The translations under genes and the position numbers were made by a program. 64,000 nt of DNA, from positions 74,244-138,243 of the IMG/VR virus record IMGVR_UViG_3300045988_165974. One strand, 5' to 3'. The notes under the pieces were generated by a model. It saw nothing but the letters and a program-made list of their open reading frames with translations, searched no databases and had not been told where the DNA came from. Origin of the DNA: a virus. Shown piece after piece: positions 2,560 through 26,028 of this stretch; position 1 is the first letter of the stretch, and each line of letters opens with the position of its first letter.

Positions 2560-3480
2560 ATGAATAATTACAGTACAGAAGTTAAGAAAAGATTTTGTAA
2601 AGACTTTGACATTCCAATTAAGATATATAGCGAGCCTTACTGGAGTTACTTGACAAACTTATATGAAAACTATTTTGGATTGTCAGATAAGTTTATTTTA
2701 CTAGATGAAGAAATCAGTAAATGCAATTCAGAGCAAGAGTTTTTAGATAAAATGTTTCATCTTAGAGACGATATTATAACAAAAACAAAAGAGACGGATG
2801 CTTATAAACATTTTTTAGAAATGGATATGAATAAATATGGGGTTAAATCAAAATTTTCAAGTAAGCACATTTATAATAATCAAAATGTTGGAAAAGTCTT
2901 TATATCAATTGACTTGATAAAAGCAAACTTTCAAGCATTAAAATATATTGATAAAGACCTCGTATTTGGCTCTGAGACATACGGAGAGTACCTTGACGGG
3001 TTTACCGATAGTAAGTATCTAAAAGAGAGTAAAAGGCTAAGACAGGTCATTTTTGGGAATATGAATCCTAAGCGACAAGTTACAGTAGAAAAATTTCTAA
3101 TGAATCAAGTCCTAGGCTTATTGGAAAGAAAATATGAATTAGGGACAATAGTTTCTTTTTCCAATGATGAAATCATATATCAAGCAGATGATTTTGTTGC
3201 AGAATATTTAACTAATTTTCTTCCTGAAAATATAAAAAACATAGTAAAGGCAAATTTAGGATTAGATGTTCGTGTTGAAATATTTAAACTTTGCAAAATA
3301 GAAAATTCAGACTTCTATGTAAAAGAGGATTTAAATACAAATGGATATAAATTGATGTGTGTTCCAGCGAATTACTTTTCTCAAGCATATAAAAAATATA
3401 ACGGATTACAAATTGTTGATATGGATTTAACTTTCTGGTATGAAAATCAATTGTGTAAATTTATAAATCCATTGTTTTAG
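2560..3480 (+). CDS. Hypothetical protein
   Basis: 306-aa ORF with a GGAGATG RBS region. No motif recognised. Confidence 0.65.
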   Translation: MNNYSTEVKKRFCKDFDIPIKIYSEPYWSYLTNLYENYFGLSDKFILLDEEISKCNSEQEFLDKMFHLRDDIITKTKETDAYKHFLEMDMNKYGVKSKFSSKHIYNNQNVGKVFISIDLIKANFQALKYIDKDLVFGSETYGEYLDGFTDSKYLKESKRLRQVIFGNMNPKRQVTVEKFLMNQVLGLLERKYELGTIVSFSNDEIIYQADDFVAEYLTNFLPENIKNIVKANLGLDVRVEIFKLCKIENSDFYVKEDLNTNGYKLMCVPANYFSQAYKKYNGLQIVDMDLTFWYENQLCKFINPLF

Positions 3481-3490
3481 GAGGAAGAAA

Positions 3491-4660
3491 TTGCTAAAGA
3501 GTTACAAAACGGAAATAAACCCAACACAGGAACAAATACAAAAGATAAATAAAACAATTGGAACTTGTAGATTTATTTATAATTTTTACATCGCTCATAA
3601 TAAAGAACTCTATAACAAGGGCGAAAAATTTATGACGGCAAAATCATTCAGTGTTTGGTTAAATAATGAATTTCTACCAAATAATCCGAATTATTCATGG
3701 ATAAAAGAAGTAAGTTCTAAATCAGTTAAAAAATCTATGGAAAATGCTTATACTGCTTTTAATAAGTTTTTTAAGAAACAAAGTAAGTTTCCTAGATTTA
3801 AGAAAAAGAATAAATCTGATGTAAAAATGTACTTTGTAAAAAATAATCCAAAAGATTGTTTCTGTGAAAGACATAGAATTAATATTCCTACTCTTGGATG
3901 GATTAAATTAAAAGAAAAGGGATATATTCCTACTACTAAAGACGGATATGTAATTAAAAGTGGTACGGTTTCTTGCAAAGCTGGAAGATATTATGTATCA
4001 GTTTTAATTGATACTTCTGATACAGAAAAACCACAATTAAATGACTTTGGATTAGGAATTGATTTAGGTGTTAAAGAATTTGCGGTAATTAGTAATGGAA
4101 CTATAAAGAAAAATATAAATAAAACTGCTAAATTAAAAAAAATAGAAAAACAATTAAAAAGAGAACAGCGTTGCCTATCGAGAAAATACGAAGGATTAAA
4201 GAAACGCAACAATAAAATGAAAGGAGAAGCCACTAGGCAAAATATTAAAAAACAAGTCTTAAAGGTACAGAAACTTCATCAAAGAATGGATAATATTCGT
4301 ACTGATTATATCAATAAATGTGTAAATGAGATAGTGAAAACCAAGCCATCTTATATTACCATTGAAGATTTGAATGTAAAAGGAATGATGAAGAATAAAC
4401 ATCTCTCTAAGGCAGTTGCTTCACAGAAATTCTATGAATTTAGAACTAAACTTGAAACAAAATGCAAAGAATTAGGAATTGAATTAAGAATTGTAAATAG
4501 GTGGTATCCATCGAGTAAATTGTGTCATGAATGTGGTTGTATCAATAAAGATTTAAAACTTTCTGACAGAGAATATATTTGTGGATGTGGATACCATGCT
4601 GATAGAGATTATAATGCAAGTCTTAATTTGAGAGATGCAATATCCTACAAAATAGCATAA
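3491..4660 (+). CDS. tnpB: TnpB (OrfB) RNA-guided endonuclease
   Basis: RuvC triad is present in GIDLGVKEFAV (D), ITIEDLNVKGM (E) and HADRDYNASLNL (D). A Zn finger reads CHECG...CGCGYH. The N-terminus YKTEINPTQEQ...CRFIYN is typical. TTG start after an AGGAGG RBS. Confidence 0.9.
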   Translation: MLKSYKTEINPTQEQIQKINKTIGTCRFIYNFYIAHNKELYNKGEKFMTAKSFSVWLNNEFLPNNPNYSWIKEVSSKSVKKSMENAYTAFNKFFKKQSKFPRFKKKNKSDVKMYFVKNNPKDCFCERHRINIPTLGWIKLKEKGYIPTTKDGYVIKSGTVSCKAGRYYVSVLIDTSDTEKPQLNDFGLGIDLGVKEFAVISNGTIKKNINKTAKLKKIEKQLKREQRCLSRKYEGLKKRNNKMKGEATRQNIKKQVLKVQKLHQRMDNIRTDYINKCVNEIVKTKPSYITIEDLNVKGMMKNKHLSKAVASQKFYEFRTKLETKCKELGIELRIVNRWYPSSKLCHECGCINKDLKLSDREYICGCGYHADRDYNASLNLRDAISYKIA

Positions 4661-4846
4661 ACAAGCATTTGTAGGTATGTACCGATGGCTTTAGTCGGGA
4701 ATTTACGACTGTGGACTGTACAAGAACTTGTGAGTAGTGTATTACTTTGTAATCACAAAAGCATACAGGATGAAACAGTAAGAAAAGTTTGTGAAAACTT
4801 TCAATATCTCGATATGGGTATATTTGTCCATATTTTGAGTGGCAGG
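4661..4846 (+). ncRNA. Putative TnpB omega (right-end) RNA scaffold
   Basis: Lies immediately 3' of tnpB. A 170-nt block (4677-4846) recurs at 24942-25111. Hairpins AAAGTTT-GTGA-AAACTTT (4784-4801) and ATATGG...CCATAT (4812-4833) are present. Confidence 0.55.
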
Positions 4847-4851
4847 AAGAC

Positions 4852-5106
4852 ATGCAGCTATATAGAACAAAGAGAAATGAGTTAAATGATAAGTTAAGAA
4901 ATACAAAAACTATGGACCAGTTGTTATCTCTTGAAGGAGAAACTCTGTGTCATGGGTTTGGTTTCTATTCAAAACGTTGCCAAGATAGACAAATAAGTAA
5001 TTTCAGAAATGGAGTTGACGGCAAAGTCCAATATCTATATGTTGATGACAAGAAGTTAGGATATTCTCAAATAAAAAATCTATATAAATATTTTGAAATC
5101 AGATAA
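4852..5106 (+). CDS. Hypothetical protein
   Basis: 84-aa ORF directly upstream of the sigma factor gene. The RBS is weak and the start abuts the omega-RNA-like module. Confidence 0.4.
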   Translation: MQLYRTKRNELNDKLRNTKTMDQLLSLEGETLCHGFGFYSKRCQDRQISNFRNGVDGKVQYLYVDDKKLGYSQIKNLYKYFEIR

Positions 5107-6001: not shown

Positions 6002-6835
6002 ATGAATGAATTAATAAAAGTATTTAATTTTGAAGGAAAAGAATTAGAAGTATTAATGTATAACAATGAAGCTCTATTTAATCCAAGAGATGTTGGAAGA
6101 TGCTTAGAAATCTCTGATGTAACAGTTAGAAGACATATGCAAAATATGAATCAAAAACAATTTATTAAGCTTACAAATTCAGATGTTCAAGATATGAACT
6201 TCCGAAAATTAAATAATGCAGGAGAAAACTTCTTAACAGAATCTGGTGTTTATAAGCTTATTTTTAAGTCCCATAAAGAATCCGCAGAGAAATTTCAAGA
6301 CTGGATAACAGATGAAGTTCTTCCAAGTATAAGAAAACATGGAACATATATGACGGATAATGTATTAGAACAAGCAATATCAAACCCAGATTTTTTAATA
6401 GGATTACTACAAAATTTAAAGGAAGAACAACAACAAAGAAAAATAGCAGAAGAAAAAGCTAAAGTATTAGAAATTGAAGTAGACCATAAAGAGGATGTTA
6501 TTGTTGGTCTTTGTCAAGATATATCTTTAGCAGAAAAAAGACAAAGAATAAAACAAATTATAAATCATAATTCAAACGGTAGATATTCAGACAGATATAA
6601 TCTTTTATATAAAGAATTCCAAGACAAATACCACATAGATTTAAAAAGACGTATGAATAATCTTGAAGTCAAATCAATTAATGAAAATAGACATCATGAA
6701 TATATTAAAATTACATCAAAAATTAAAACTAATAAAATGGAATATATAGATAAAATATTATGCATGATTCCTGAACTGTACGAAATCAGCTGCAAGATAT
6801 TTGAAAACGATGTCGCAGAACTAATGAAAGAATAG
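6002..6835 (+). CDS. BRO-N / ANT-type phage antirepressor
   Basis: ...FNFEGKELEVLMYNNEALFNPRDVGRCLEI...TESGVYKLIFKSHKESAEKFQDWITDEVLPSIRKHGTY... is the Bro-N signature. ATG 6002 follows a TTGGAGAAG RBS. Confidence 0.8.
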   Translation: MNELIKVFNFEGKELEVLMYNNEALFNPRDVGRCLEISDVTVRRHMQNMNQKQFIKLTNSDVQDMNFRKLNNAGENFLTESGVYKLIFKSHKESAEKFQDWITDEVLPSIRKHGTYMTDNVLEQAISNPDFLIGLLQNLKEEQQQRKIAEEKAKVLEIEVDHKEDVIVGLCQDISLAEKRQRIKQIINHNSNGRYSDRYNLLYKEFQDKYHIDLKRRMNNLEVKSINENRHHEYIKITSKIKTNKMEYIDKILCMIPELYEISCKIFENDVAELMKE

Positions 6836-6866
6836 GAAACAACAATAATATAAATTGGAGGACAAA

Positions 6867-7193
6867 ATGAGAAAAGAAATAACTAAAGAAGAATGGTTTC
6901 AATATGAATTAAAGGTACATTTTTCGGATGGAGCATACAGAAAAAGAACCTTAGAAAGATACAGCCCGTTAGACGAAGAGAATTTTTTATATTACCAAAT
7001 GAAATTACCAATTTGGAAAATGGACACAGGAGAATATTACAATACGAATTTTATTACATCTATAGAAATTGGAATTAAAGATATTCAAAATGTAATTGGA
7101 GATTCAGAATTGGGCCTTGGATTATATGCAACGTTAGAAGGAATAGAGAAATATAACGAGGAGGTTTTGAAAAAGAAAAAATGGCAATTTTAA
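6867..7193 (+). CDS. Hypothetical protein
   Basis: ORF with ATG 6867 after a TTGGAGG RBS. Confidence 0.6.
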   Translation: MRKEITKEEWFQYELKVHFSDGAYRKRTLERYSPLDEENFLYYQMKLPIWKMDTGEYYNTNFITSIEIGIKDIQNVIGDSELGLGLYATLEGIEKYNEEVLKKKKWQF

Positions 7194-8119
7194 CGATAAC
7201 TCAAAAAGATTACGATTTAATTAAGATTAAAAAGGGGAAAAGAGGTTATACAACACTTGAAGATTTTTTAGATTATGGAAAAGAAAAATTTAATTTAGAA
7301 GAAGAAAGAATTAAAGGAATATTTTTTGAAAACATTCAAGCAAAAATTTCAGATTTAATTTATTTAGATAATGAGAATAAATCAATTTGTGAAATTCATA
7401 TAACTCATTGTGAAATAGAGAATATAAAATTAGAAGGAATCAAACATTTAAGAATAAAAAAATCTAAAATAGGAACAGTTTGTGCAGAAGAAATAAAAAC
7501 AATAGGTCTTCTTAATTCAACAATTTTCTTTTTACAATTGTCTGAAAGTATTGTGAACATAACTCTTTCAGATACTACAAATATAGGAACATTACATTTA
7601 TTTTGTTGTATTTATAAAATTTTTACTGATTCTCCCTTCTGTACGCTAGAAAAGATTCATGTAGAAAATAGTTATGTTACAAATATATGTAGGAACACTT
7701 CTTTATTAATGAAGGAAAGTAAGAAAATAACTAATTGTGGAAACAATCTATATCCTATAGTTCCAGAAACGGGTTCTTTTATTGGATACAAAAAAGCACT
7801 TAGTTGTATTACTCCAGGAAGACATTTTCCTGTAATTATAAAGCTGGAAATACAAGAAGATAGTTTAAGAAATTCTGCTTGTGGTAGAAAATGCAGAGCA
7901 AGTAAGGTAAAGGTTTTAGATATTTATAGTATTAAAGATAAAAATATAAAATACGAAATTGCTTATAGTAAATTTGGTTTATGTTCCGAAAATTCATTAA
8001 AATATGAAATTGGGAAAATAGTTGAGCCAAATTCTTTTGAAGAAGACAGATGGATTGAGTGTGCTCCAGGTATTCATTTCTTTATAACAGAAGAAGAAGC
8101 AATAAATTATGATTTTTAG
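7181..8119 (+). CDS. Hypothetical protein
   Basis: 312-aa ORF overlapping the upstream stop. The C-terminal ...GYKKAL...CAPGIHFFITEEEAINY resembles a domain seen in phage and giant-virus repeat proteins, which is a weak recollection only. Confidence 0.6.
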   Translation: MAILTITQKDYDLIKIKKGKRGYTTLEDFLDYGKEKFNLEEERIKGIFFENIQAKISDLIYLDNENKSICEIHITHCEIENIKLEGIKHLRIKKSKIGTVCAEEIKTIGLLNSTIFFLQLSESIVNITLSDTTNIGTLHLFCCIYKIFTDSPFCTLEKIHVENSYVTNICRNTSLLMKESKKITNCGNNLYPIVPETGSFIGYKKALSCITPGRHFPVIIKLEIQEDSLRNSACGRKCRASKVKVLDIYSIKDKNIKYEIAYSKFGLCSENSLKYEIGKIVEPNSFEEDRWIECAPGIHFFITEEEAINYDF

Positions 8120-10767: not shown

Positions 10768-11718
10768 ATGCTAAAACTTATAACTCATAATGATTTAGAT
10801 GGAGTTGGGTGTGGGATTATTGCAAGCTACATACTAGGGAATGGAATAGACATAAGTTATTGCAGTAATCATCAGGTCGATAAAGTTTTTTCAGATACAT
10901 TATCTAGTGGAGAATATGAAATGATAATTTTAACAGATGTAAGTATCAATAAAGAAAATGCAGAAAAAGTTAAAGAATCAGATATGAATGTTCTTTTATT
11001 AGACCATCATCCAACTGCACTTTGGTTAAATGAATATCCGTTTGCTAAAGTTCTTATAGGAGATACAGATGGAACAAAGACTTGTGGAACTCAATTATTT
11101 GCAAGTTTCCTTTATCAATCAATGGAGGAAGATAAAGATTTCCACAAAGGTAGAAAAATGTTTGAAATGGTTACAAATAAAGTTCTTTGGAAATTTGTAA
11201 AACTAGTAACCTATTGGGACACATGGCAATGGAAAGAAGAAAATATATTAGAAGCAAAAGAGCTTAATATGTTATTTGACATTTATGGACTTGAAGAATT
11301 TTCAAAGTTAATTAAAAAGAAATTTGAAAACTATGAACTATATGGAGACGATTCTAGTTTCTTTGGAATGGCAGAAAGGCATGTATTAAAATTAAGACAA
11401 AGAGAAATAGATGATTTGTTCAAAAAGAAAAACAAATCACTAAAGAAAACTAAATTCGAAGGTTATAATGTTGGAGTTATATTCTGTGATAGATTTTATT
11501 CAGAAATAGGAAATAGAATTTGTGAAGAGAATTCTGACATAGATTTTGTAGTTATGTTACAAGACCATACTACAAGCCTTAGAGGTATAGATAAAGTTAA
11601 TTTAGGAGATATCGCCAAAAAATATGGTGGTGGAGGACATAATAATGCCGCAGGATTCCCAATTGGTGCGGTAAATTTTATAGATGAAATATTGGGTGAT
11701 ATGAATGATTTCTTATAA
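10768..11718 (+). CDS. DHH/DHHA1 family phosphoesterase (NrnA/RecJ-core-like)
   Basis: Motifs ITHNDLDGVGCG, LLLDHHP and YGGGGHNNAAGF (DHHA1 GGGH). ATG 10768 follows a GGGAGG RBS. Confidence 0.8.
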   Translation: MLKLITHNDLDGVGCGIIASYILGNGIDISYCSNHQVDKVFSDTLSSGEYEMIILTDVSINKENAEKVKESDMNVLLLDHHPTALWLNEYPFAKVLIGDTDGTKTCGTQLFASFLYQSMEEDKDFHKGRKMFEMVTNKVLWKFVKLVTYWDTWQWKEENILEAKELNMLFDIYGLEEFSKLIKKKFENYELYGDDSSFFGMAERHVLKLRQREIDDLFKKKNKSLKKTKFEGYNVGVIFCDRFYSEIGNRICEENSDIDFVVMLQDHTTSLRGIDKVNLGDIAKKYGGGGHNNAAGFPIGAVNFIDEILGDMNDFL

Positions 11719-12803: not shown

Positions 12804-12833
12804 GGTAACTAAAATTTTAGTTACCATTTTTTT
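12804..12833 (+). terminator. Intrinsic terminator
   Basis: GGTAACTA (12804-12811) pairs with TAGTTACC (12818-12825), followed by a T7 run. Confidence 0.7.
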
Positions 12834-12843
12834 ATAAATTAAG

Positions 12844-12872
12844 TTGACATACTGATATAAAAAATATATAAT
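12844..12872 (+). promoter_or_regulatory. Sigma-A type promoter (conserved family)
   Basis: TTGACA (12844-12849), a 17-nt spacer, then TATAAT (12867-12872). Confidence 0.65.
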
Positions 12873-12902
12873 TAATATATAAAGATTGGAAGGAGGGCAA
12901 AA

Positions 12903-13700
12903 ATGTTAAAAGTTTTATATTGTAATGAAAACTTAATAATAGATTCTTTAGCAGAAAGCTTAGTCATAGGGGGATTGCCTATGTATGATAAAGTTCCTAC
13001 TAAAGAAGGACTAGAAGATGAAATACAATCTTTAAAATGGAAATTAAAAGTTATATGGAAAAATAAAGTATATTTTACTTTCAATAAGGAAGTAAAACAA
13101 ATAAGACTTAATAAATCTATTTTAGATATGGATTTAAATTATTTATCTAATGAATTTGGGATTGTAGGAATAAATTTAGAACAAAAAATGGACAAAATAA
13201 ATTCAATATGTGAATCCTTAGATGTATATTGTAAAAGAGGTAGAACATTAGGTAATGTTTCAGTAGGAAGTGGGCATAATTCTTTATTTAAAGGGGTTCA
13301 ATTTAACATGATTATTAACTTCCCATTATATTGGCTAAAGGAACTACAGAGGTATCATTTTACAGATATAATATCAAGCCAATCTACTATGCATAAAGTT
13401 TTAAAATTTAATTTAAACGATATGTTTAGTGATGAAGTTGACCCAAGATGTATTGCAGTTATTGAAGATTTAAAAGAAAAATATAATATGGAATCAGATA
13501 AAGATAAGAAAAAACAAATATGGAGAAGAATTATTAACAGTTTGCCAGATGGGTTTAGTATGGCAATGGGCATCACAATGAATTATTTACAATTAACAAC
13601 TATGATTCCCCAAAGAGAAAAACATAAGCTAAGTGAATGGTCCGAAGATTTAATTCCTTTCTTTAAATCTTTACCATATTATGATTTCTTTATACAATAA
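12903..13700 (+). CDS. Hypothetical protein
   Basis: 265-aa ORF with a GGAAGGAGGG RBS. See the rejected ThyX idea. Confidence 0.6.
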   Translation: MLKVLYCNENLIIDSLAESLVIGGLPMYDKVPTKEGLEDEIQSLKWKLKVIWKNKVYFTFNKEVKQIRLNKSILDMDLNYLSNEFGIVGINLEQKMDKINSICESLDVYCKRGRTLGNVSVGSGHNSLFKGVQFNMIINFPLYWLKELQRYHFTDIISSQSTMHKVLKFNLNDMFSDEVDPRCIAVIEDLKEKYNMESDKDKKKQIWRRIINSLPDGFSMAMGITMNYLQLTTMIPQREKHKLSEWSEDLIPFFKSLPYYDFFIQ

Positions 13701-15572: not shown

Positions 15573-15668
15573 GAAGGGTTTTAACAGTTAAATAAAATAT
15601 ATAAATATCTATAAATATATTGTAAAATTTTATAGATTTCGATATAATACTATTGAGGTGATAAATAA

Positions 15669-16295
15669 ATGAAATATTACTCAATAGGAGAATTTGCGAA
15701 CCAAATAGGCAAGACGGTTCAAACACTTAGAAATTGGGATAATAAAGGAACTTTAAAACCGCATCATGTAACAGTAGGCGGAACAAGGTATTATTCTCAA
15801 GAACAACTTAATCATTTCTTAGGACTTAAAAATATGGAATCTAAAAATAAAAAAATTATTGGTTATTGCAGAGTTAGTTCTTATAAACAAAAAGACGACC
15901 TTGAAAGGCAAATTGAAAATGTAAAAACATATATGTATGCAAAAGGTTATCAATTCGAGATTATTTCTGATATTGGAAGTGGAATAAACTATAATAAAAA
16001 AGGATTAAATCAATTAATAGATATGATTACTAATTCAGAAATAGATAAGATAGTAGTCCTTCATAAAGATAGATTAATTAGATTTGGATATGAATTAATA
16101 AAAAATCTTTGTGATAAGTATGGGACTACTATTGAAATTATAGATAATACCGAGAGGACAGAAGAACAAGAATTAGTTGAAGATTTAATTCAGATAATCA
16201 CTGTATTTAGCTGTAGACTTCAAGGTAAAAGAGCTAATAAAGCTAAGAAAATGATTAAGGAGTTGATAGAAGATGATACTTGCAAAGAAAGTTAG
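15669..16295 (+). CDS. tnpA: IS607-type TnpA: MerR-like HTH plus serine recombinase
   Basis: The N-terminus reads ...YSIGEFANQIGKTVQTLRNWDNKG... The catalytic region reads ...IIGYCRVSSYKQKDDLERQ... Confidence 0.85.
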   Translation: MKYYSIGEFANQIGKTVQTLRNWDNKGTLKPHHVTVGGTRYYSQEQLNHFLGLKNMESKNKKIIGYCRVSSYKQKDDLERQIENVKTYMYAKGYQFEIISDIGSGINYNKKGLNQLIDMITNSEIDKIVVLHKDRLIRFGYELIKNLCDKYGTTIEIIDNTERTEEQELVEDLIQIITVFSCRLQGKRANKAKKMIKELIEDDTCKES

Positions 16296-17388
16296 ATTGT
16301 GCCCAAGTGAACTACAAGAAGAAAAAATATGGCAATCAGTAGGGACTGCAAGATTTATTTATAATTGGACTTTAAATAGGCAAGATGAAAATTATAAAGG
16401 TGGTGGTAAATTCATACCTGATAGTGTTCTTAGAAAAGAAATAACTCAATTAAAGAAAACTGACTTAAGTTGGTTAAATGAAGTATCTAATAATGTTGCA
16501 AAACAAGCTGTAAAAGATGCCTGTGATTCATATAAAAGATTCTTTAAAGGATTGTCAGGTAAACCTAGATTTAAAAGTAGAAAAAGAAGTAAGAAGTCTT
16601 TTTATCATGACAATGTTAAACTTAAAGTCAAGGATAATAAATTAGTTAAGATTGAAAAGATAGGTTGGATTAAAACTAATGAGCAACTATCTATTGGAGC
16701 TAAATATAGCAATCCAAGAATAAGTTATGATAACAAATATTGGTATTTATCAGTAGGTATAGAACAGGAAGAAATCCAAGAAGAATTAACAGATGCATCA
16801 TTAGGAATAGATTTAGGATTGAAAAACTTAGCAATCTGTTCTGATGGCACAGTATATAAAAATATAAATAAAACTTGTACAGTCAAAAAAATCGAAAAGA
16901 AACTAAAAAGATTACAAAGACAAATAAGTAGAAAGTATGAAAAAAATAAAAAAGGAAAGGAGTATGTCAAAACTAAAAATATTATAAAACTTGAAAAGCA
17001 GATACAACAGACACATAGAAGATTAGCTAATATTAGAAATAACTATCTTCATCAAACTACTACAAGTATAGTGAAAACCAAACCATACAGAGTTGTAATA
17101 GAAGATTTAGCAGTTTCTGATATGATGAAAAATAAACATTTATCTGATGCTATAAGAAAACAAGGATTCTATGAATTTAGAAGACAACTTGAATACAAGT
17201 GCAATTTTAGAGGAATTAAGTTAGTCGTAGCAGATAGATTTTATCCATCGTCAAAAATTTGTAGCCAATGTGGAGAGATTAAGAAGGATTTAAAGATATC
17301 CGATAGAGTATACAAGTGTAATTGTGGGCTTGTGATTGATAGAGATTTAAATGCAAGTATTAATCTTTCTAAATATAAATTAGCATAA
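16273..17388 (+). CDS. tnpB: TnpB RNA-guided endonuclease
   Basis: GIDLGLKNLAI (D), VVIEDLAVSDM (E), a Zn finger CSQCG...CNCG, and IDRDLNASINL (D). Confidence 0.9.
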   Translation: MILAKKVRLCPSELQEEKIWQSVGTARFIYNWTLNRQDENYKGGGKFIPDSVLRKEITQLKKTDLSWLNEVSNNVAKQAVKDACDSYKRFFKGLSGKPRFKSRKRSKKSFYHDNVKLKVKDNKLVKIEKIGWIKTNEQLSIGAKYSNPRISYDNKYWYLSVGIEQEEIQEELTDASLGIDLGLKNLAICSDGTVYKNINKTCTVKKIEKKLKRLQRQISRKYEKNKKGKEYVKTKNIIKLEKQIQQTHRRLANIRNNYLHQTTTSIVKTKPYRVVIEDLAVSDMMKNKHLSDAIRKQGFYEFRRQLEYKCNFRGIKLVVADRFYPSSKICSQCGEIKKDLKISDRVYKCNCGLVIDRDLNASINLSKYKLA

Positions 17389-17556
17389 TATCATTAATAA
17401 GATAATGCTAATATGTAGGATGCGTTGTATCCAAATTTACGCCCTTGGAGAGTTATATCAAACGAAAGTAGGTTGTTATTTATAATTTCCAAAATCGAAT
17501 TCGTAGAACAGGGAATTAAACAAGATTTATAGATATTTATAGATTTTTGGCAACGG
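17389..17556 (+). ncRNA. Putative omega RNA scaffold of the IS607 TnpB
   Basis: Lies 3' of tnpB. It shares TGTAGG...stem...AATTTACG(N)C..TGGA architecture with 4671-4720. Confidence 0.4.
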
Positions 17557-24147: not shown

Positions 24148-24559
24148 AGCAATACAAAATGTTGCTTTTATCAAAAAAGGCGAAATATACGATGCAACAG
24201 TCAATCATTGGGGAAATTATAGTATTTCTATAGATGGAGTGAGTCGTAGTTTCTCTCCTAAGTGGTTTGAGAAAATAACAAGAAAGGAACAAAAGCAAAT
24301 GAAAAATAATAACACTATTTATGAAATGCCGTCATATGTAACACTTCTTAGTGAAGGAGATGTAACTAAAGTTATATTTAACGAAGAAAAAGGAGTTACA
24401 GTTGTAAAACTTAATGATGGAACAAAAGCAACTGCAAGATGTAGTGAACATGATATATTTTGTAGAGAAACAGGTTTTAGAGTTGCTTATGCAAAGGCAG
24501 AAATAAAACAACTTAAAAAAATGATAAAAGACAGAGAAGAATTTATAGCAAGAGTTTAA
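24137..24559 (+). CDS. Hypothetical protein
   Basis: 140-aa ORF overlapping the upstream stop. Confidence 0.6.
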   Translation: MKVRAIQNVAFIKKGEIYDATVNHWGNYSISIDGVSRSFSPKWFEKITRKEQKQMKNNNTIYEMPSYVTLLSEGDVTKVIFNEEKGVTVVKLNDGTKATARCSEHDIFCRETGFRVAYAKAEIKQLKKMIKDREEFIARV

Positions 24560-24654
24560 AACTCAATAGAAAAATAAAAGTTGCCAACTGTCTATTGAGT
24601 TAATATAAAAAAGGTATGTGGATGTTTTAAATAGCTACATACCTTTAATCGTAA

Positions 24655-25111
24655 AAGGAGGAATGTTAAGTAACTAAAAACATAATCAAATGTGAGTCAA
24701 TGTACTCAAAGATACTCAAAATCCAGAGTATTAGCTGGTGACTTAAAACCGCTGAAATCTTAGGAAAGATAAGCCAGTACAAGTTGAAACAGTCTTGTTA
24801 ACTATGGGGCAGAACCCTGATGGTAAAGATTGAGCAATGGTAGAAGTCTACGAAAACCAAGTAGCAGAACATAAAATATTAGGAAAGGAAAAGCTATTTA
24901 GATGAAACCTGTATCTAATCAATAGAAAGGAATTTACAGGCATGTACCGATGGCTTAGTCGGGAATTTACGACTGTGGAGTGTACACGAACCTGCGAGTA
25001 GCGTATTACTTTGTAATCACAAAAGCATGCACATTGAAGCAGTAACTGCAAGTCGTGAGACTGCAGCGAATCATCTAGCATATACACATTTGTATATGTT
25101 CTTAGTAGCAG
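24655..25111 (+). mobile_element. tnpB-less relic of an IS605-family element that keeps the omega-RNA-like right end
   Basis: AAAGGAGGAATGTTAAGTAAC (24655-) resembles the RBS and start of tnpB at 3481-3505. CTGATGGTAAAGATTGAGCAATGG (about 24818) resembles the HADRDYNAS codons of tnpB. The 3' 170 nt match 4677-4846. Confidence 0.5.
24942..25111 (+). ncRNA. Orphan omega-RNA-like structured RNA (second copy of 4677-4846)
   Basis: The first ~95 nt are near-identical to copy 1. Distal hairpins CTGCAAGTC-GTGA-GACTGCAG (25046-25066) and CATATACA-CATT-TGTATATG (25079-25098) replace the copy-1 stems with different but still complementary sequence. Confidence 0.55.
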
Positions 25112-25125
25112 ATGAATTATGAATT

Positions 25126-25338
25126 ATGAAATGTTTTAGAGGAATAAGTGGTTGTGTGGGATATTCAAATGGAGAATGTCATAGTATAGAGAATTGTAAG
25201 TATCAAGATTATTTTTATAATAGCACAACAAATGACAACAGTTCAAAATCTACTAACGAATGCAGTAAGAAAGGATTTTGCCCATATAAATCAGGTGATT
25301 GGTGTACAGTGGTAAAAAATTGTGCTTATAAAGGTTGA
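25126..25338 (+). CDS. Small Cys-rich protein
   Basis: 70-aa ORF with 8 Cys. No clear RBS. Confidence 0.45.
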   Translation: MKCFRGISGCVGYSNGECHSIENCKYQDYFYNSTTNDNSSKSTNECSKKGFCPYKSGDWCTVVKNCAYKG

Positions 25339-25359
25339 GAATAATTGTGAGGGTAGACT

Positions 25360-26028
25360 ATGAAAATAGGAATAACTGGAGATGTTCATGGAGATAGGGA
25401 TTTTAGACAAATATATAATGCCAAAAAGCTTGGAATTACCCATTTAATTATATGTGGAGATTTTGGACATATTTGGGATGGCTCATATAAAGAGCAAAAA
25501 AGACTTAATTACATGAACAAAATAGGAATAAAGATATTATTTGTCGATGGAAACCATGAAAATTTTGATTTGTTATATAAATATCCTGTATCAGAAATGT
25601 ATAGTGGGAAAGTTCAAGTCATAAGAGAAAATATTATACATCTTATGAGAGGAGAAATTTATACAATTAACAACAAGAAGTTCTTTGCTTTTGGTGGAGC
25701 AGCATCAACTGACAAAGAGTTTCGTACAGAAGGAAAAAGTTGGTGGAAACAAGAACTTCCTAGCATCGAAGAATATCAAAATGCAATACTTAATTTACAA
25801 AAACATAATTTTAATGTTGATTATATAGTAACACATACAAGCTTTCCAAAAGCTTTGATTGAATTAGGTGGAGATTATAGAGTTGACGATATGTCTAATT
25901 TTTTGAATTACGTGAAAACACAAACAAATTATAAATATTGGTTCTTTGGACATATGCATACAAATACAGATATAAAAGACTTAAATGCTATGTGTTTATA
26001 TAAAAATATATATGTATTGGAGGAATAA
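25360..26028 (+). CDS. Calcineurin-like metallophosphoesterase
   Basis: GDVHGD, GDFGH, VDGNHEN and FGHMH motifs appear in the canonical order. Confidence 0.8.
   Translation: MKIGITGDVHGDRDFRQIYNAKKLGITHLIICGDFGHIWDGSYKEQKRLNYMNKIGIKILFVDGNHENFDLLYKYPVSEMYSGKVQVIRENIIHLMRGEIYTINNKKFFAFGGAASTDKEFRTEGKSWWKQELPSIEEYQNAILNLQKHNFNVDYIVTHTSFPKALIELGGDYRVDDMSNFLNYVKTQTNYKYWFFGHMHTNTDIKDLNAMCLYKNIYVLEE

What the first reader, a model, noticed from the sequence alone, without database searches (positions are those of the whole stretch)
24655..25111. Orphan omega-RNA-like module: a tnpB-less relic keeps a 170-nt structured RNA with compensatory stem changes
The 170 nt at 24942-25111 match the sequence just 3' of the tnpB at 3491-4660 (4677-4846) at equal length. 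The first ~95 nt are nearly identical, including ATGTACCGATGGC...GGGAATTTACGACTGTGGA...GTATTACTTTGTAATCACAAAAGCAT. In the distal part two hairpins keep their shape but change sequence. AAAGTTT-GTGA-AAACTTT becomes CTGCAAGTC-GTGA-GACTGCAG, with the same GTGA loop. ATATGG...CCATAT becomes CATATACA...TGTATATG. That is covariation, so the RNA structure rather than a protein appears to be under selection. Upstream of copy 2 only faint traces of tnpB remain: an RBS and start-like AGGAGGAATGTTAAGTAAC, and a CTGATGG.AAAGATT..GCAA trace of the HADRDYNA codons. Established: TnpB uses a right-end-derived omega RNA whose 3' flank serves as guide. Inference: the orphan could be loaded in trans by the intact TnpB, with putative guide ATGAATTATGAATTATGAAA starting at 25112. 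That would give the phage a second programmed target, or it could be a non-autonomous mobile derivative.
Basis: partly seen in the sequence, partly recalled or inferred. Interest (0 to 1): 0.75.

Follow-up and report, generated by a model that had tools for sequence, protein, structure and literature searches.

The report
Gene-less transposon carrying a guide RNA
This 451-base stretch is one copy of a widespread, protein-less offshoot of an IS607-type jumping gene: it keeps the guide-RNA scaffold used by the TnpB DNA cutter, carries an extra folded RNA domain that matches no Rfam family, and sits exactly between a phage gene's ribosome-binding site and its start codon.

Summary
Window 24972-25045 is a full RAGATH-18 RNA, the core of the guide-RNA (reRNA) scaffold of IS607-family TnpB. 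The same motif lies 3' of both tnpB genes in the window. The distal hairpins keep their shape while their sequence changes.

It is not a tnpB gene that decayed in place. Window 24661-25111 is a discrete 451-nt ORF-less element.
- A 99%-identical sibling phage has the precise empty site, AGGAG|TGGTATTTT.
- I recovered 109 complete copies, all about 450 nt, from gut and rumen phages and Firmicutes genomes.
- Most copies lie right after AGGAG, the TnpB target-adjacent motif (TAM) and also the Shine-Dalgarno sequence. An ORF starts 5-11 nt after the right end at 41 of 46 sites.

The element consists of an IS607 left end, a roughly 170-nt structured RNA insert, a remnant of the tnpA ribosome-binding site and start codon, and the reRNA scaffold with the right end. 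The insert has strong covariation and no Rfam match.

The window's TnpB1 is close to ISFba1 TnpB, whose TAM is AGGAG, so loading in trans is plausible but untested. The 20-nt guide matches AGGAG-flanked sites perfectly in three sibling phage contigs. In the window, a 2.6-kb methyltransferase cassette next to the element is missing.

I rate it a new variant of a known kind, of moderate interest.

The parts
24656..24660 (+). AGGAG in the left flank. It is the Shine-Dalgarno sequence of the interrupted gene and the target-adjacent motif (TAM).
   Evidence: The empty site in L253 reads CGTAAAAGGAG|TGGTATTTT. 29 of 45 distinct left flanks have exact AGGAG and 8 more are SD-like. AGGAG is the TAM of ISFba1-type TnpB (PMC11061315).
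24661..25111 (+). The whole ORF-less IS607-derived element, 451 nt.
   Evidence: Presence/absence polymorphism with exact borders, L253 against L003 and the window. It is 79% identical to Ceridwen 16800-17253 with sharp borders. 109 complete copies of constant length were recovered.
24661..24667 (+). First 7 nt of the element, hypervariable within the family.
   Evidence: Mean pairwise identity is 0.40, the same as flanking DNA. It lies inside the element according to the empty site. The same 7-mer occurs in the 95%-identical Catenibacterium copy L018. No stem involving it is supported, p about 0.33.
24668..24711 (+). Left-end segment homologous to the left end of autonomous IS607 elements. 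It includes hairpin TGAGT-caatgt-ACTCA at 24693-24708.
   Evidence: 80% identity to the left end upstream of tnpA in L049. Related left ends occur in L045 and L053. LE CAAATGTG and RE CACATTTG form an inverted repeat, read directly from the sequence.
24711..24881 (+). Structured RNA insert of unknown function. It contains hairpin 24711-24732, the long-range helix 24751-24761/24826-24835 enclosing hairpins 24779-24798 and 24802-24823, hairpin 24848-24864, and an A-rich linker.
   Evidence: Over 36 pairs, 98.3% of cells are paired against 87.5% in shuffles. 18 pairs have compensatory changes, 0 of 500 shuffles reach the observed values, and slid controls reach at most 41%. No Rfam family matches. 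An HMM of the insert finds it only inside this element family.
24882..24904 (+). Remnant of the tnpA ribosome-binding site and start codon (GGAAAGGAAAAGCTATTTAGATG). TAGATG at 24899-24904 also pairs with CATCTA at 25072-25077.
   Evidence: Compare AAAGGAGAGTGCTATAATG(tnpA) in L049 with AAAGGAGAGTCTACTATTTAGATG in family members. For the long-range pairing, alignment columns 263-268/448-453 pair in 28-31 of 31 sequences, with compensatory changes at 263:453.
24908..24971 (+). Scaffold stem-loop 24908-24940 and the 5' flanking hairpin of the reRNA, 24942-24971.
   Evidence: Covarying stem at alignment columns 281-286/309-314. The 5' flank is near-identical to copy 1. The architecture follows Ren et al..
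24972..25045 (+). RAGATH-18 motif, the core of the reRNA scaffold.
   Evidence: Rfam RF03064, 64.2 bits against a gathering score of 44.9, full length 1-71.
25046..25111 (+). 3' flanking motif: GUGA-loop hairpin 25046-25066, second hairpin 25078-25099, and the right end ...TAGTAGCAG.
   Evidence: RNAfold. Covariation at alignment columns 422-430/435-442. The right-end border comes from comparing L253, L003 and the window.
25112..25131 (+). Putative 20-nt guide, the right flank: ATGAATTATGAATTATGAAA.
   Evidence: It occupies the guide position immediately 3' of the scaffold (PMC11061315). Perfect matches preceded by AAGGAG occur in L003, L242 and L253.
25126..25338 (+). Downstream 70-aa Cys-rich ORF, now separated from an AGGAG by the element.
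   Evidence: Homologous ORF in L003 at 11275-11487. No Pfam hit.
3491..4660 (+). tnpB1, an ISFba1-like IS607-family TnpB and candidate partner in trans.
   Evidence: PDB 8IAZ, E 1e-189, full length. The third RuvC Asp is present (DRDYNA) where the deposited structure has Ala. Pfam OrfB_IS605, Cas12f1-like_TNB and HTH_OrfB_IS605.
4632..4845 (+). reRNA scaffold of tnpB1, copy 1 of the finding. Its guide starts at 4846.
   Evidence: RAGATH-18 at 4708-4781, 74.9 bits. Fold. Coordinates.
15579..17556 (+). Complete IS607 of a second subtype: tnpA 15669-16295, tnpB2 16273-17388, RAGATH-18 17442-17515.
   Evidence: Absent from L003 and L007. The empty site reads TAGGAAAGGAG|AAAATATGG. Pfam Resolvase plus MerR for TnpA.

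Best explanation
Window 24661-25111 is a copy of a non-autonomous, ORF-less derivative of an ISFba1-like IS607-family transposon.

**What the sequence shows.**
- It keeps the transposon's left end.
- It keeps a remnant of the tnpA ribosome-binding site and start codon.
- It keeps the complete guide-RNA (reRNA) scaffold, which also forms the right end.
- tnpA and tnpB are gone.
- A roughly 170-nt structured RNA domain sits where the tnpA leader was.
- The element is inserted immediately 3' of AGGAG. That sequence is both the Shine-Dalgarno sequence of the next gene and the TAM of this TnpB clade.

**What is inferred.**
- The element is transcribed with the surrounding + strand operon.
- A TnpB supplied in trans binds the scaffold. 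The candidate here is TnpB1 at 3491-4660; in other genomes it would be a host copy.
- That TnpB uses the 20 nt after the right end as guide. It would cut AGGAG-flanked alleles that lack the element, so that recombinational repair copies or retains the element.
- A serine transposase (TnpA) supplied in trans would move the element.
- The right end reads AGCAG where the TAM reads AGGAG. That mismatch would spare the element's own junction.
- The role of the extra RNA domain is unknown. My best guess is that it acts in cis on stability, processing or conformational control of the guide RNA now that the tnpB mRNA is gone.
For: **Precise insertion.** Three 99%-identical phage alleles give the borders.
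- L253 is empty: AGGAG|TGGTATTTT.
- L003 and L007/L242 are occupied.
- The window is occupied and lacks a 2.6-kb cassette.

**A family of elements.**
- 109 complete copies, all about 450 nt, come from viral, genome and metagenome collections.
- None has an ORF between the two halves.
- Several genomes carry 3-6 copies.

**Target preference.**
- 29 of 45 left flanks have exact AGGAG.
- At 44 of 46 right flanks an ORF of at least 40 codons starts 1-14 nt after the right end.

**Descent from IS607.**
- The first roughly 50 nt match the left end of tnpA-plus-tnpB elements (L049, L045, L053).
- The internal AAAGGAG..ATG matches the tnpA ribosome-binding site and start.

**Scaffold intact.**
- RAGATH-18 scores 64-76 bits in family members.
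- The reRNA half is the most conserved part, 0.85-0.87 mean identity against 0.76 for the insert.
- Stems covary.

**Partner available.** TnpB1 matches the ISFba1 TnpB structure 8IAZ (E 1e-189) with its catalytic Asp intact. ISFba1 uses TAM AGGAG and a 20-nt guide 3' of the scaffold (PMC11061315).

**Targets exist.** AAGGAG followed by a perfect 22-nt guide match occurs in three sibling contigs.

**Precedent.** ORF-less PATEs that encode guide RNAs needing TnpB in trans are described for IS605 (PMC10055086).
Against: - No expression or binding data exist.
- The element's 3' flanking motif differs in sequence from that of TnpB1's own reRNA. This type of 3' flank was never found next to any tnpB in the viral collection, so compatibility with TnpB1 is unproven.
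- The only TnpA in the window belongs to a different IS607 subtype, with a GG core and different end repeats. Mobility inside this phage is therefore doubtful.
- Ceridwen carries a copy but has no TnpB or TnpA.
- No sigma-70-like promoter was found in or just upstream of the element.
- The insertion separates the SD from the start codon, and how the downstream gene is then expressed is unexplained.
Confidence: 0.75

Rival explanations
1. Relic that decayed in place, or a drifted partial duplication: a tnpB gene once stood at 24.66-24.94 kb in this phage and eroded, or the 3' region of copy 1 was duplicated and then drifted.
For: The two RAGATH-18 regions are 88% identical over 115 nt. An AGGAG and a short ATG follow the left border.
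Against: - There is no tnpB similarity at DNA or protein level.
- The empty site in L253 shows a single precise 451-nt insertion.
- The same 451-nt architecture is found in 109 complete copies in unrelated contexts.
- The region upstream of the scaffold is a covarying RNA, not decaying coding sequence.
- The 3' flank is of a type not seen with tnpB1-like genes.
Confidence: 0.03
2. IStron-like element: the 5' domain is a self-splicing or self-processing RNA that removes the element from the mRNA and so restores the SD-to-start spacing of the interrupted gene.
For: - IS607-family IStrons with group I introns exist, and ORF-less IStrons are known.
- The element always lies in the sense orientation between SD and start codon. 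Removal at the RNA level would rescue the gene.
- The 5' domain is strongly structured.
- The element ends in G.
Against: - No Intron_gpI or any ribozyme family matches, even at E up to 5-10, in the window copy and 10 other copies.
- By manual inspection the helices do not map onto P3-P9. I found no P7 or P3 pseudoknot candidates that are conserved, and no internal guide complementary to AGGAG near the 5' end.
- The first 7 nt are unconstrained.
- At about 170-230 nt the domain is small for a group IA2 core.
Confidence: 0.1
3. Exapted phage guide-RNA gene: the element no longer moves, and the phage keeps it as a second programmed guide for TnpB1 against competing sibling phages.
For: - The guide matches TAM-flanked sites perfectly in three sibling contigs that still carry a methyltransferase cassette the window lacks.
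- TnpB1 has lost its own tnpA and left end and may be domesticated.
- There is no cognate TnpA in the window.
Against: - Any TnpB-family element has a guide that matches its own empty site, so the match needs no special selection.
- The same element occurs in many bacterial chromosomes and in a phage without TnpB.
- No sibling phage was shown to carry tnpB1 (searches found nothing).
Confidence: 0.15
4. Inert passenger: the copy is a dead insertion whose RNA is neither loaded nor used. Its conservation reflects recent spread only.
For: - There is no detectable promoter.
- The 3' flank differs from that of TnpB1's reRNA.
- The window and L003 copies differ at only 4 of 451 positions, so this copy alone says little about selection.
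Against: - Across the family, at less than 96% pairwise identity, 41 of 100 predicted pairs show compensatory changes.
- The reRNA half is more conserved than the rest.
- RAGATH-18 scores stay 20-30 bits above the threshold.
- This pattern indicates purifying selection on RNA structure in the lineage.
Confidence: 0.15

Closest known systems
ISFba1-type IS607 TnpB with its RAGATH-18-derived guide RNA (reRNA); Ren et al., Cell Res 2024, PMC11061315, PDB 8IAZ
   Same: - RAGATH-18 core, a 5' flanking hairpin, and a 3' flank with two stem-loops.
- The guide lies immediately 3' of the scaffold.
- AGGAG lies next to the left end.
- The window's TnpB1 matches the 8IAZ protein over its full length (E 1e-189).
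   Different: - There is no tnpB or tnpA in the element.
- The sequence of the 3' flank is a separate lineage not seen next to tnpB.
- A structured RNA of about 170 nt is added 5' of the scaffold.
PATE-like ORF-less IS200/IS605 elements that encode guide (omega) RNAs and need TnpB in trans; Meers et al. 2023, PMC10055086
   Same: - Protein-less elements with both transposon ends and a guide-RNA scaffold.
- They are presumed to depend on TnpA and TnpB supplied in trans.
- They are multi-copy.
   Different: - Those belong to the Y1-transposase family, with subterminal ssDNA hairpins and TTGAT-type TAMs.
- This element descends from a serine-recombinase IS607, has no such palindromic ends, targets AGGAG (the ribosome-binding site), and has an additional structured RNA domain.
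IS607-family IStrons and their ORF-less derivatives (CboIStron, BcISt1); 10.1101/2023.11.20.567912 and PMC4227781
   Same: - IS607 ancestry.
- A large structured RNA at the 5' end and a guide RNA at the 3' end of one transcript.
- ORF-less copies exist.
- Insertion in the sense orientation relative to the host gene.
   Different: - No group I intron could be detected.
- The TAM is AGGAG rather than TGGG.
- Insertion is in the SD-to-start gap rather than within coding sequence.
- No evidence of splicing.
RAGATH-18 RNAs not adjacent to TnpB (36% of 16,029 in Ren et al.)
   Same: This element is probably part of that uncharacterised fraction.
   Different: That fraction was only counted. Its borders, architecture, target site and 5' domain were not described in the papers I could read.

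Membership tests
IS607-TnpB guide RNA (reRNA) scaffold | RAGATH-18 motif above Rfam's gathering score | tested here: met
   64.2 bits against 44.9, model positions 1-71. Other family members score 66-76 bits.
IS607-TnpB guide RNA (reRNA) scaffold | A conserved 5' flanking hairpin and a 3' flanking motif with two stem-loops | tested here: met
   RNAfold and RNAalifold show both motifs, with compensatory changes in the GUGA-loop hairpin.
IS607-TnpB guide RNA (reRNA) scaffold | Encoded directly downstream of an IS607 tnpB gene | tested here: not met
   No tnpB within the element or nearby. The nearest tnpB genes end at 17388 and 4660.
IS607-TnpB guide RNA (reRNA) scaffold | Binds TnpB and guides TAM-dependent DNA cleavage | not testable with these tools
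   Only indirect evidence: an ISFba1-like TnpB1 in the same genome and TAM-flanked perfect targets in sibling phages.
Non-autonomous IS607-family transposon | Presence/absence polymorphism with exact borders | tested here: met
   L253 is empty and L003 is occupied in 99%-identical DNA. The element is inserted after AGGAG with no target duplication beyond an ambiguous AG.
Non-autonomous IS607-family transposon | Many copies at unrelated loci, several per genome | tested here: met
   46 distinct right flanks. Multiple copies in RUG13060, CALADM01, Butyrivibrio NC3005 and two IMG/VR phages.
Non-autonomous IS607-family transposon | Ends homologous to those of autonomous elements (tnpA plus tnpB) | tested here: met
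   The left end is 80% identical to the L049 left end and related to those of L045 and L053. The right end is the reRNA. LE CAAATGTG and RE CACATTTG form an inverted repeat.
Non-autonomous IS607-family transposon | Excision and integration by a serine TnpA supplied in trans | not testable with these tools
   No cognate TnpA was identified. The window's TnpA belongs to a subtype with different ends and a GG core.
IStron (group I intron fused to an IS) | A recognisable group I intron catalytic core | tested here: not met
   No Intron_gpI hit at E up to 10 in the window copy or E up to 5 in 10 other copies. By manual inspection the covarying helices do not map to P3-P9.
IStron (group I intron fused to an IS) | Splicing that restores the host transcript | not testable with these tools
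   No transcript data were available.
IS200/IS605 PATE | Subterminal imperfect palindromes recognised by a Y1 transposase, with a TTGAT-like TAM | tested here: not met
   The ends derive from IS607, the TAM is AGGAG, and the associated autonomous relatives encode Resolvase-type TnpA.

The most novel reading that the evidence does not exclude
The roughly 170-nt covarying 5' domain is a new functional RNA class that lets an ORF-less IS607 derivative live inside ribosome-binding sites. It might do this by removing or processing the element at the RNA level, as an IStron analogue without a group I intron, or by switching between a guide-RNA state and a state that permits expression of the host gene. 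One strand (alignment columns 105-107) can pair with either of two covarying partners. That fits a conformational switch.
Probability: 0.15. Interest if true: 0.85.

Novelty: new variant of a known kind. Interest (0 to 1): 0.55.

Why it matters
**A parasite of a parasite.** The RAGATH-18/IS607 branch of TnpB systems has spawned a successful protein-less lineage. It keeps only the guide RNA and the transposon ends, and it is common in gut and rumen Firmicutes and their phages. This probably accounts for part of the roughly one third of RAGATH-18 RNAs that are not next to a TnpB.

**Ribosome-binding sites as targets.** Because the TAM is AGGAG, these elements land between the Shine-Dalgarno sequence and the start codon. 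This raises a concrete and testable question: how is the interrupted gene still expressed?

**A new RNA motif.** The added structured RNA domain has unusually clear covariation and matches no Rfam family.

**A natural allele series.** Three sibling phages show the states empty, inserted, and inserted with a neighbouring methyltransferase cassette deleted exactly up to the next TAM site. The window's guide matches the unrearranged siblings. Together these give a ready-made system for testing RNA-guided homing and genome remodelling between competing phages.

Tried and rejected
- **tnpB remnants upstream of the scaffold.** blastn and tblastn with both TnpBs found nothing.
- **Group I intron or other ribozyme in the 5' domain.** Rfam in E-value mode on the window copy and on 10 other copies gave only RAGATH-18 and noise. 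By manual inspection the covarying helices did not map to P3-P9.
- **A stem formed by the first 7 nt.** Not supported; permutation p about 0.33.
- **An H-type pseudoknot UGGU/ACCA with CUAC/GUAG.** Only the second stem covaries, and a 1-nt loop 3 makes the knot unlikely. I dropped the first stem.
- **An apparently short variant, L017.** It is an assembly gap made of N.
- **A tnpB lineage with the orphan-type 3' flank.** None was found in the TnpB loci or in a dedicated viral scan.
- **The insert outside this family.** An nhmmer profile found none in 1.9 Mb of held sequence.
- **The empty site or left flank of tnpB1 in viral contigs.** Two scans gave no hits, so tnpB1's left border and its presence in sibling phages remain unknown.
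- **A second target of the orphan guide inside the window.** None with two or fewer mismatches next to a TAM.
- **Promoter and terminator scan of 24400-25400.** No more sites than in shuffled sequence, and none in the element.
Full report
**1.

blastn aligns window 24932-25045 with 4667-4781 at 87.8% identity over 115 nt. A three-way MAFFT alignment shows the same block downstream of the second tnpB.

Rfam places complete RAGATH-18 RNAs at 4708-4781 (74.9 bits), 17442-17515 (67.6 bits) and 24972-25045 (64.2 bits). The gathering score is 44.9 bits.

RAGATH-18 is the core of the guide-RNA scaffold (reRNA) of IS607-family TnpB nucleases. In ISFba1 the RNA has four parts (PMC11061315):
- a 5' flanking hairpin;
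- the 73-nt RAGATH-18 motif;
- a 64-nt 3' flank with two stem-loops and two pseudoknots;
- a 20-nt guide.

The TAM of ISFba1 is 5'-AGGAG.

They fold in both copies despite unrelated sequence.

Two details needed correction:
- Copy 1 ends at 4845.
- Structural homology extends about 45 nt further 5'. It includes a covarying stem-loop (24908-24940) and a long-range pairing, TAGATG 24899-24904 with CATCTA 25072-25077. The counterpart in copy 1 is GAGAT/ATCTC.

The 'faint tnpB traces' are not real. No DNA or protein similarity to either TnpB exists upstream of the scaffold.

**2. It is a discrete inserted element, not a decayed gene**

The whole block 24652-25115 is 79% identical to a non-coding stretch of Butyrivibrio phage Ceridwen, with sharp borders.

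Pattern scans recovered the same unit widely:
- in IMG/VR phages, two of which carry two copies each;
- in 28 loci of Lachnospiraceae, Clostridium, Blautia, Butyrivibrio and Catenibacterium genomes, with up to six copies per genome;

Of these, 109 copies are complete. All are about 450 nt, and none has an ORF between the 5' part and the scaffold.

The decisive evidence is an allele series in phages 99% identical to the window:
- L253 has the empty site CGTAAAAGGAG|TGGTATTTTAGTG. The GTG is the start of a C5 DNA methyltransferase gene.
- L003 and L007/L242 have the element between AGGAG and TGGTATTTT.
- The window has the same left junction.

So the element is exactly 24661-25111. It is inserted without a target duplication, immediately 3' of AGGAG.

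**3. Where it comes from**

Close relatives of TnpB1 in viral contigs gave the reference architecture.

- Full elements (L049, L045) read AGGAG | left end of about 65-85 nt | tnpA (serine recombinase) | tnpB | reRNA ending ..GCAG.
- The orphan's first roughly 50 nt (TAAGTAAC...CAAATGTGAGTcaatgtACTCAAAG) are 80% identical to the L049 left end.
- Its internal GAAAGGA(G)A..CTA..TAGATG matches the tnpA ribosome-binding site and start codon. Compare AAAGGAGAGTGCTATAATG in L049.
- LE CAAATGTG and RE CACATTTG form a terminal inverted repeat.

The element is therefore an IS607 that has lost tnpA and tnpB. It also carries about 170 nt (24711-24881) inserted within the former tnpA Shine-Dalgarno sequence, between CTCAAAG and GAG.

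**4. The extra domain is a structured RNA**

I used 31 representatives with less than 96% pairwise identity.

- RNAalifold predicts 100 pairs, 41 of them with compensatory changes.
- For the 36 pairs of the 5' domain alone, 98.3% of cells are paired against 87.5 ± 0.5% in shuffles.
- 18 pairs show double changes, and 154 cells show double changes against 48.8 ± 7.4 in shuffles.
- None of 500 shuffles reaches the observed values, and slid controls reach at most 41%.
- The best-supported feature is a long-range helix (24751-24761 with 24826-24835) that closes a three-way junction.
- One strand (alignment columns 105-107) can also pair with an upstream covarying partner. This hints at alternative conformations.
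- No Rfam family matches this domain in the window copy or in ten others, even at permissive E-values.
- A profile of the domain finds it only inside this element family.
- By manual inspection it does not look like a group I intron. The helices do not map onto P3-P9, and I found no conserved P7 or internal guide sequence.

**5. Target site**

- Across 45 distinct left flanks, 29 have exact AGGAG at the junction and 8 more are SD-like.
- Across 46 distinct right flanks, 44 have an ORF of at least 40 codons starting 1-14 nt after the right end, and 41 of these start at 5-11 nt.
- TnpB-bearing relatives show the same placement.

The family therefore inserts between Shine-Dalgarno sequence and start codon. 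This follows from a TAM that equals the SD consensus.

The first 7 nt of the element are as variable as flanking DNA, with 0.40 mean identity. They lie inside the element according to the empty site, and they are inherited: L018 shares the window's GAATGTT. I read them as an unconstrained spacer.

**6. How it most likely works**

*Shown:*
- An intact scaffold. The reRNA half is the most conserved part of the family, with 0.85-0.87 mean identity.
- A guide position at 25112-25131.
- A right end reading AGCAG where the TAM reads AGGAG.
- In the same phage, a TnpB (3491-4660) that matches the ISFba1 TnpB structure 8IAZ (E 1e-189) and retains the catalytic Asp that the deposited mutant lacks.

*Found in silico:* AAGGAG followed by a perfect 22-nt match to the guide occurs in three sibling contigs, L003, L242 and L253. 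The L003 copy's guide matches the empty L253 site over the same length.

*Inferred:*
- TnpB supplied in trans loads the RNA.
- It cuts alleles that lack the element.
- Recombinational repair then spreads or retains the element.
- A serine TnpA supplied in trans moves it.

This is the logic already proposed for ORF-less IS605 PATEs that encode guide RNAs (PMC10055086).

*Caveats:*
- The orphan-type 3' flank was never seen next to a tnpB.
- The window's only TnpA belongs to a different IS607 subtype.
- Ceridwen has neither TnpB nor TnpA.
- No promoter was detected.
- How the interrupted gene is translated is unexplained.

**7. The neighbouring deletion**

Relative to L003, the window lacks 2,645 bp. 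This segment holds the methyltransferase gene and several small ORFs (L003 8616-11260).

The deletion runs from the last base of the element to the base after the next AAGGAG. L253 shows that the state without the element, with the cassette present, is the likely ancestor.

Two explanations fit:
- Recombination between the right end and a downstream target site. This is an adjacent deletion of the kind expected for a serine transposase.
- Insertion into a cassette-less allele formed by AGGAG microhomology.

Similar flank swaps occur elsewhere in the family: L163 against L235 and L128, and L122 against L189.

**8. Comparison with what is known, and verdict**

The element works like a PATE-type non-autonomous transposon carrying a guide RNA, but it belongs to the IS607/RAGATH-18 lineage.

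- It meets the RNA-level criteria of an reRNA scaffold.
- It fails the criterion of being adjacent to tnpB.
- It meets every testable criterion of a non-autonomous IS607 derivative.
- It fails the IStron criterion of a group I core.

Ren et al. counted 36% of RAGATH-18 RNAs as not adjacent to TnpB but did not describe them. I found no description of this architecture, of its placement within ribosome-binding sites, or of the 5' domain in the papers I searched.

I rate it a new variant of a known kind, with interest 0.55. The main open and potentially surprising item is the function of the covarying 5' domain.

Noticed in passing
window 15579-17556: A complete IS607 of a second subtype (tnpA 15669-16295 with Resolvase and MerR domains, tnpB2, RAGATH-18) is absent from sibling contigs L003 and L007. 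The empty site reads TAGGAAAGGAG|AAAATATGG. It inserted at the GG inside the Shine-Dalgarno sequence, and its right end (..CAACGG|AG) rebuilds a GGAG in front of the downstream ATG.
   Followed up: partly
window 25111/25112; L003 8616-11260: A 2,645-bp cassette (a 669-aa C5 DNA methyltransferase and small ORFs) present in L003, L242 and L253 is missing from the window. The deletion runs exactly from the element's last base to just after the next AAGGAG.
   Followed up: partly
window 3478-3500 and 4837-4855: tnpB1 has no tnpA and no recognisable left end. It starts 7 nt after an AGGAGG that overlaps the stop codon of the upstream gene. The same AGGAGGA..GAAGAAATTG is tnpB's own ribosome-binding site inside full elements (L043-L045), so its left border is ambiguous. 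AGGAAGA occurs at both junctions. No empty site was found in viral contigs.
   Followed up: partly
L129 about 12831-13400; L221: Two family members carry an extra insertion of about 125 nt inside the loop of the stem-loop that precedes the 5' flank. These may be nested insertions.
   Followed up: no
L202 and L230: In two unrelated contigs the 5' module ends exactly after ..GAAAGGAAAAG and is fused to unrelated DNA. In L230 it is joined to the middle of an XRE-type repressor gene. This suggests the internal SD-like site is a recombination breakpoint.
   Followed up: no
L243 1218-1299: A RAGATH-27-like match (73.9 bits, just under the gathering score of 76.1) lies about 300 nt upstream of a copy of the element. 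Three tRNA-like hits lie downstream.
   Followed up: no
L001 4403-4459 (Ceridwen record 17202-17258): The annotated start of the 709-aa Ceridwen CDS QHJ73755.1 lies inside the element. An in-frame ATG 5 nt after the right end (record 17256) is the more likely start.
   Followed up: partly
A3 alignment columns 83-88, 103-107 and 187-189 (window about 24733-24738, 24749-24753 and 24833-24835): The strand GCT/ACT can pair with an upstream AGC/AGT or with a downstream AGC/AGT. All three segments change together across the family. This could be a conformational switch or a triple interaction.
   Followed up: partly
L018 (Catenibacterium mitsuokai DSM 15897) 6798-7244: A chromosomal copy is 91-95% identical to the window's element and has the same first 7 nt, but it sits at a different site. 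This suggests recent exchange and hints at the phage's host range.
   Followed up: no
L013 1196-1270: A second RAGATH-18 lies about 900 nt from the element copy in this short Clostridium contig.
   Followed up: no
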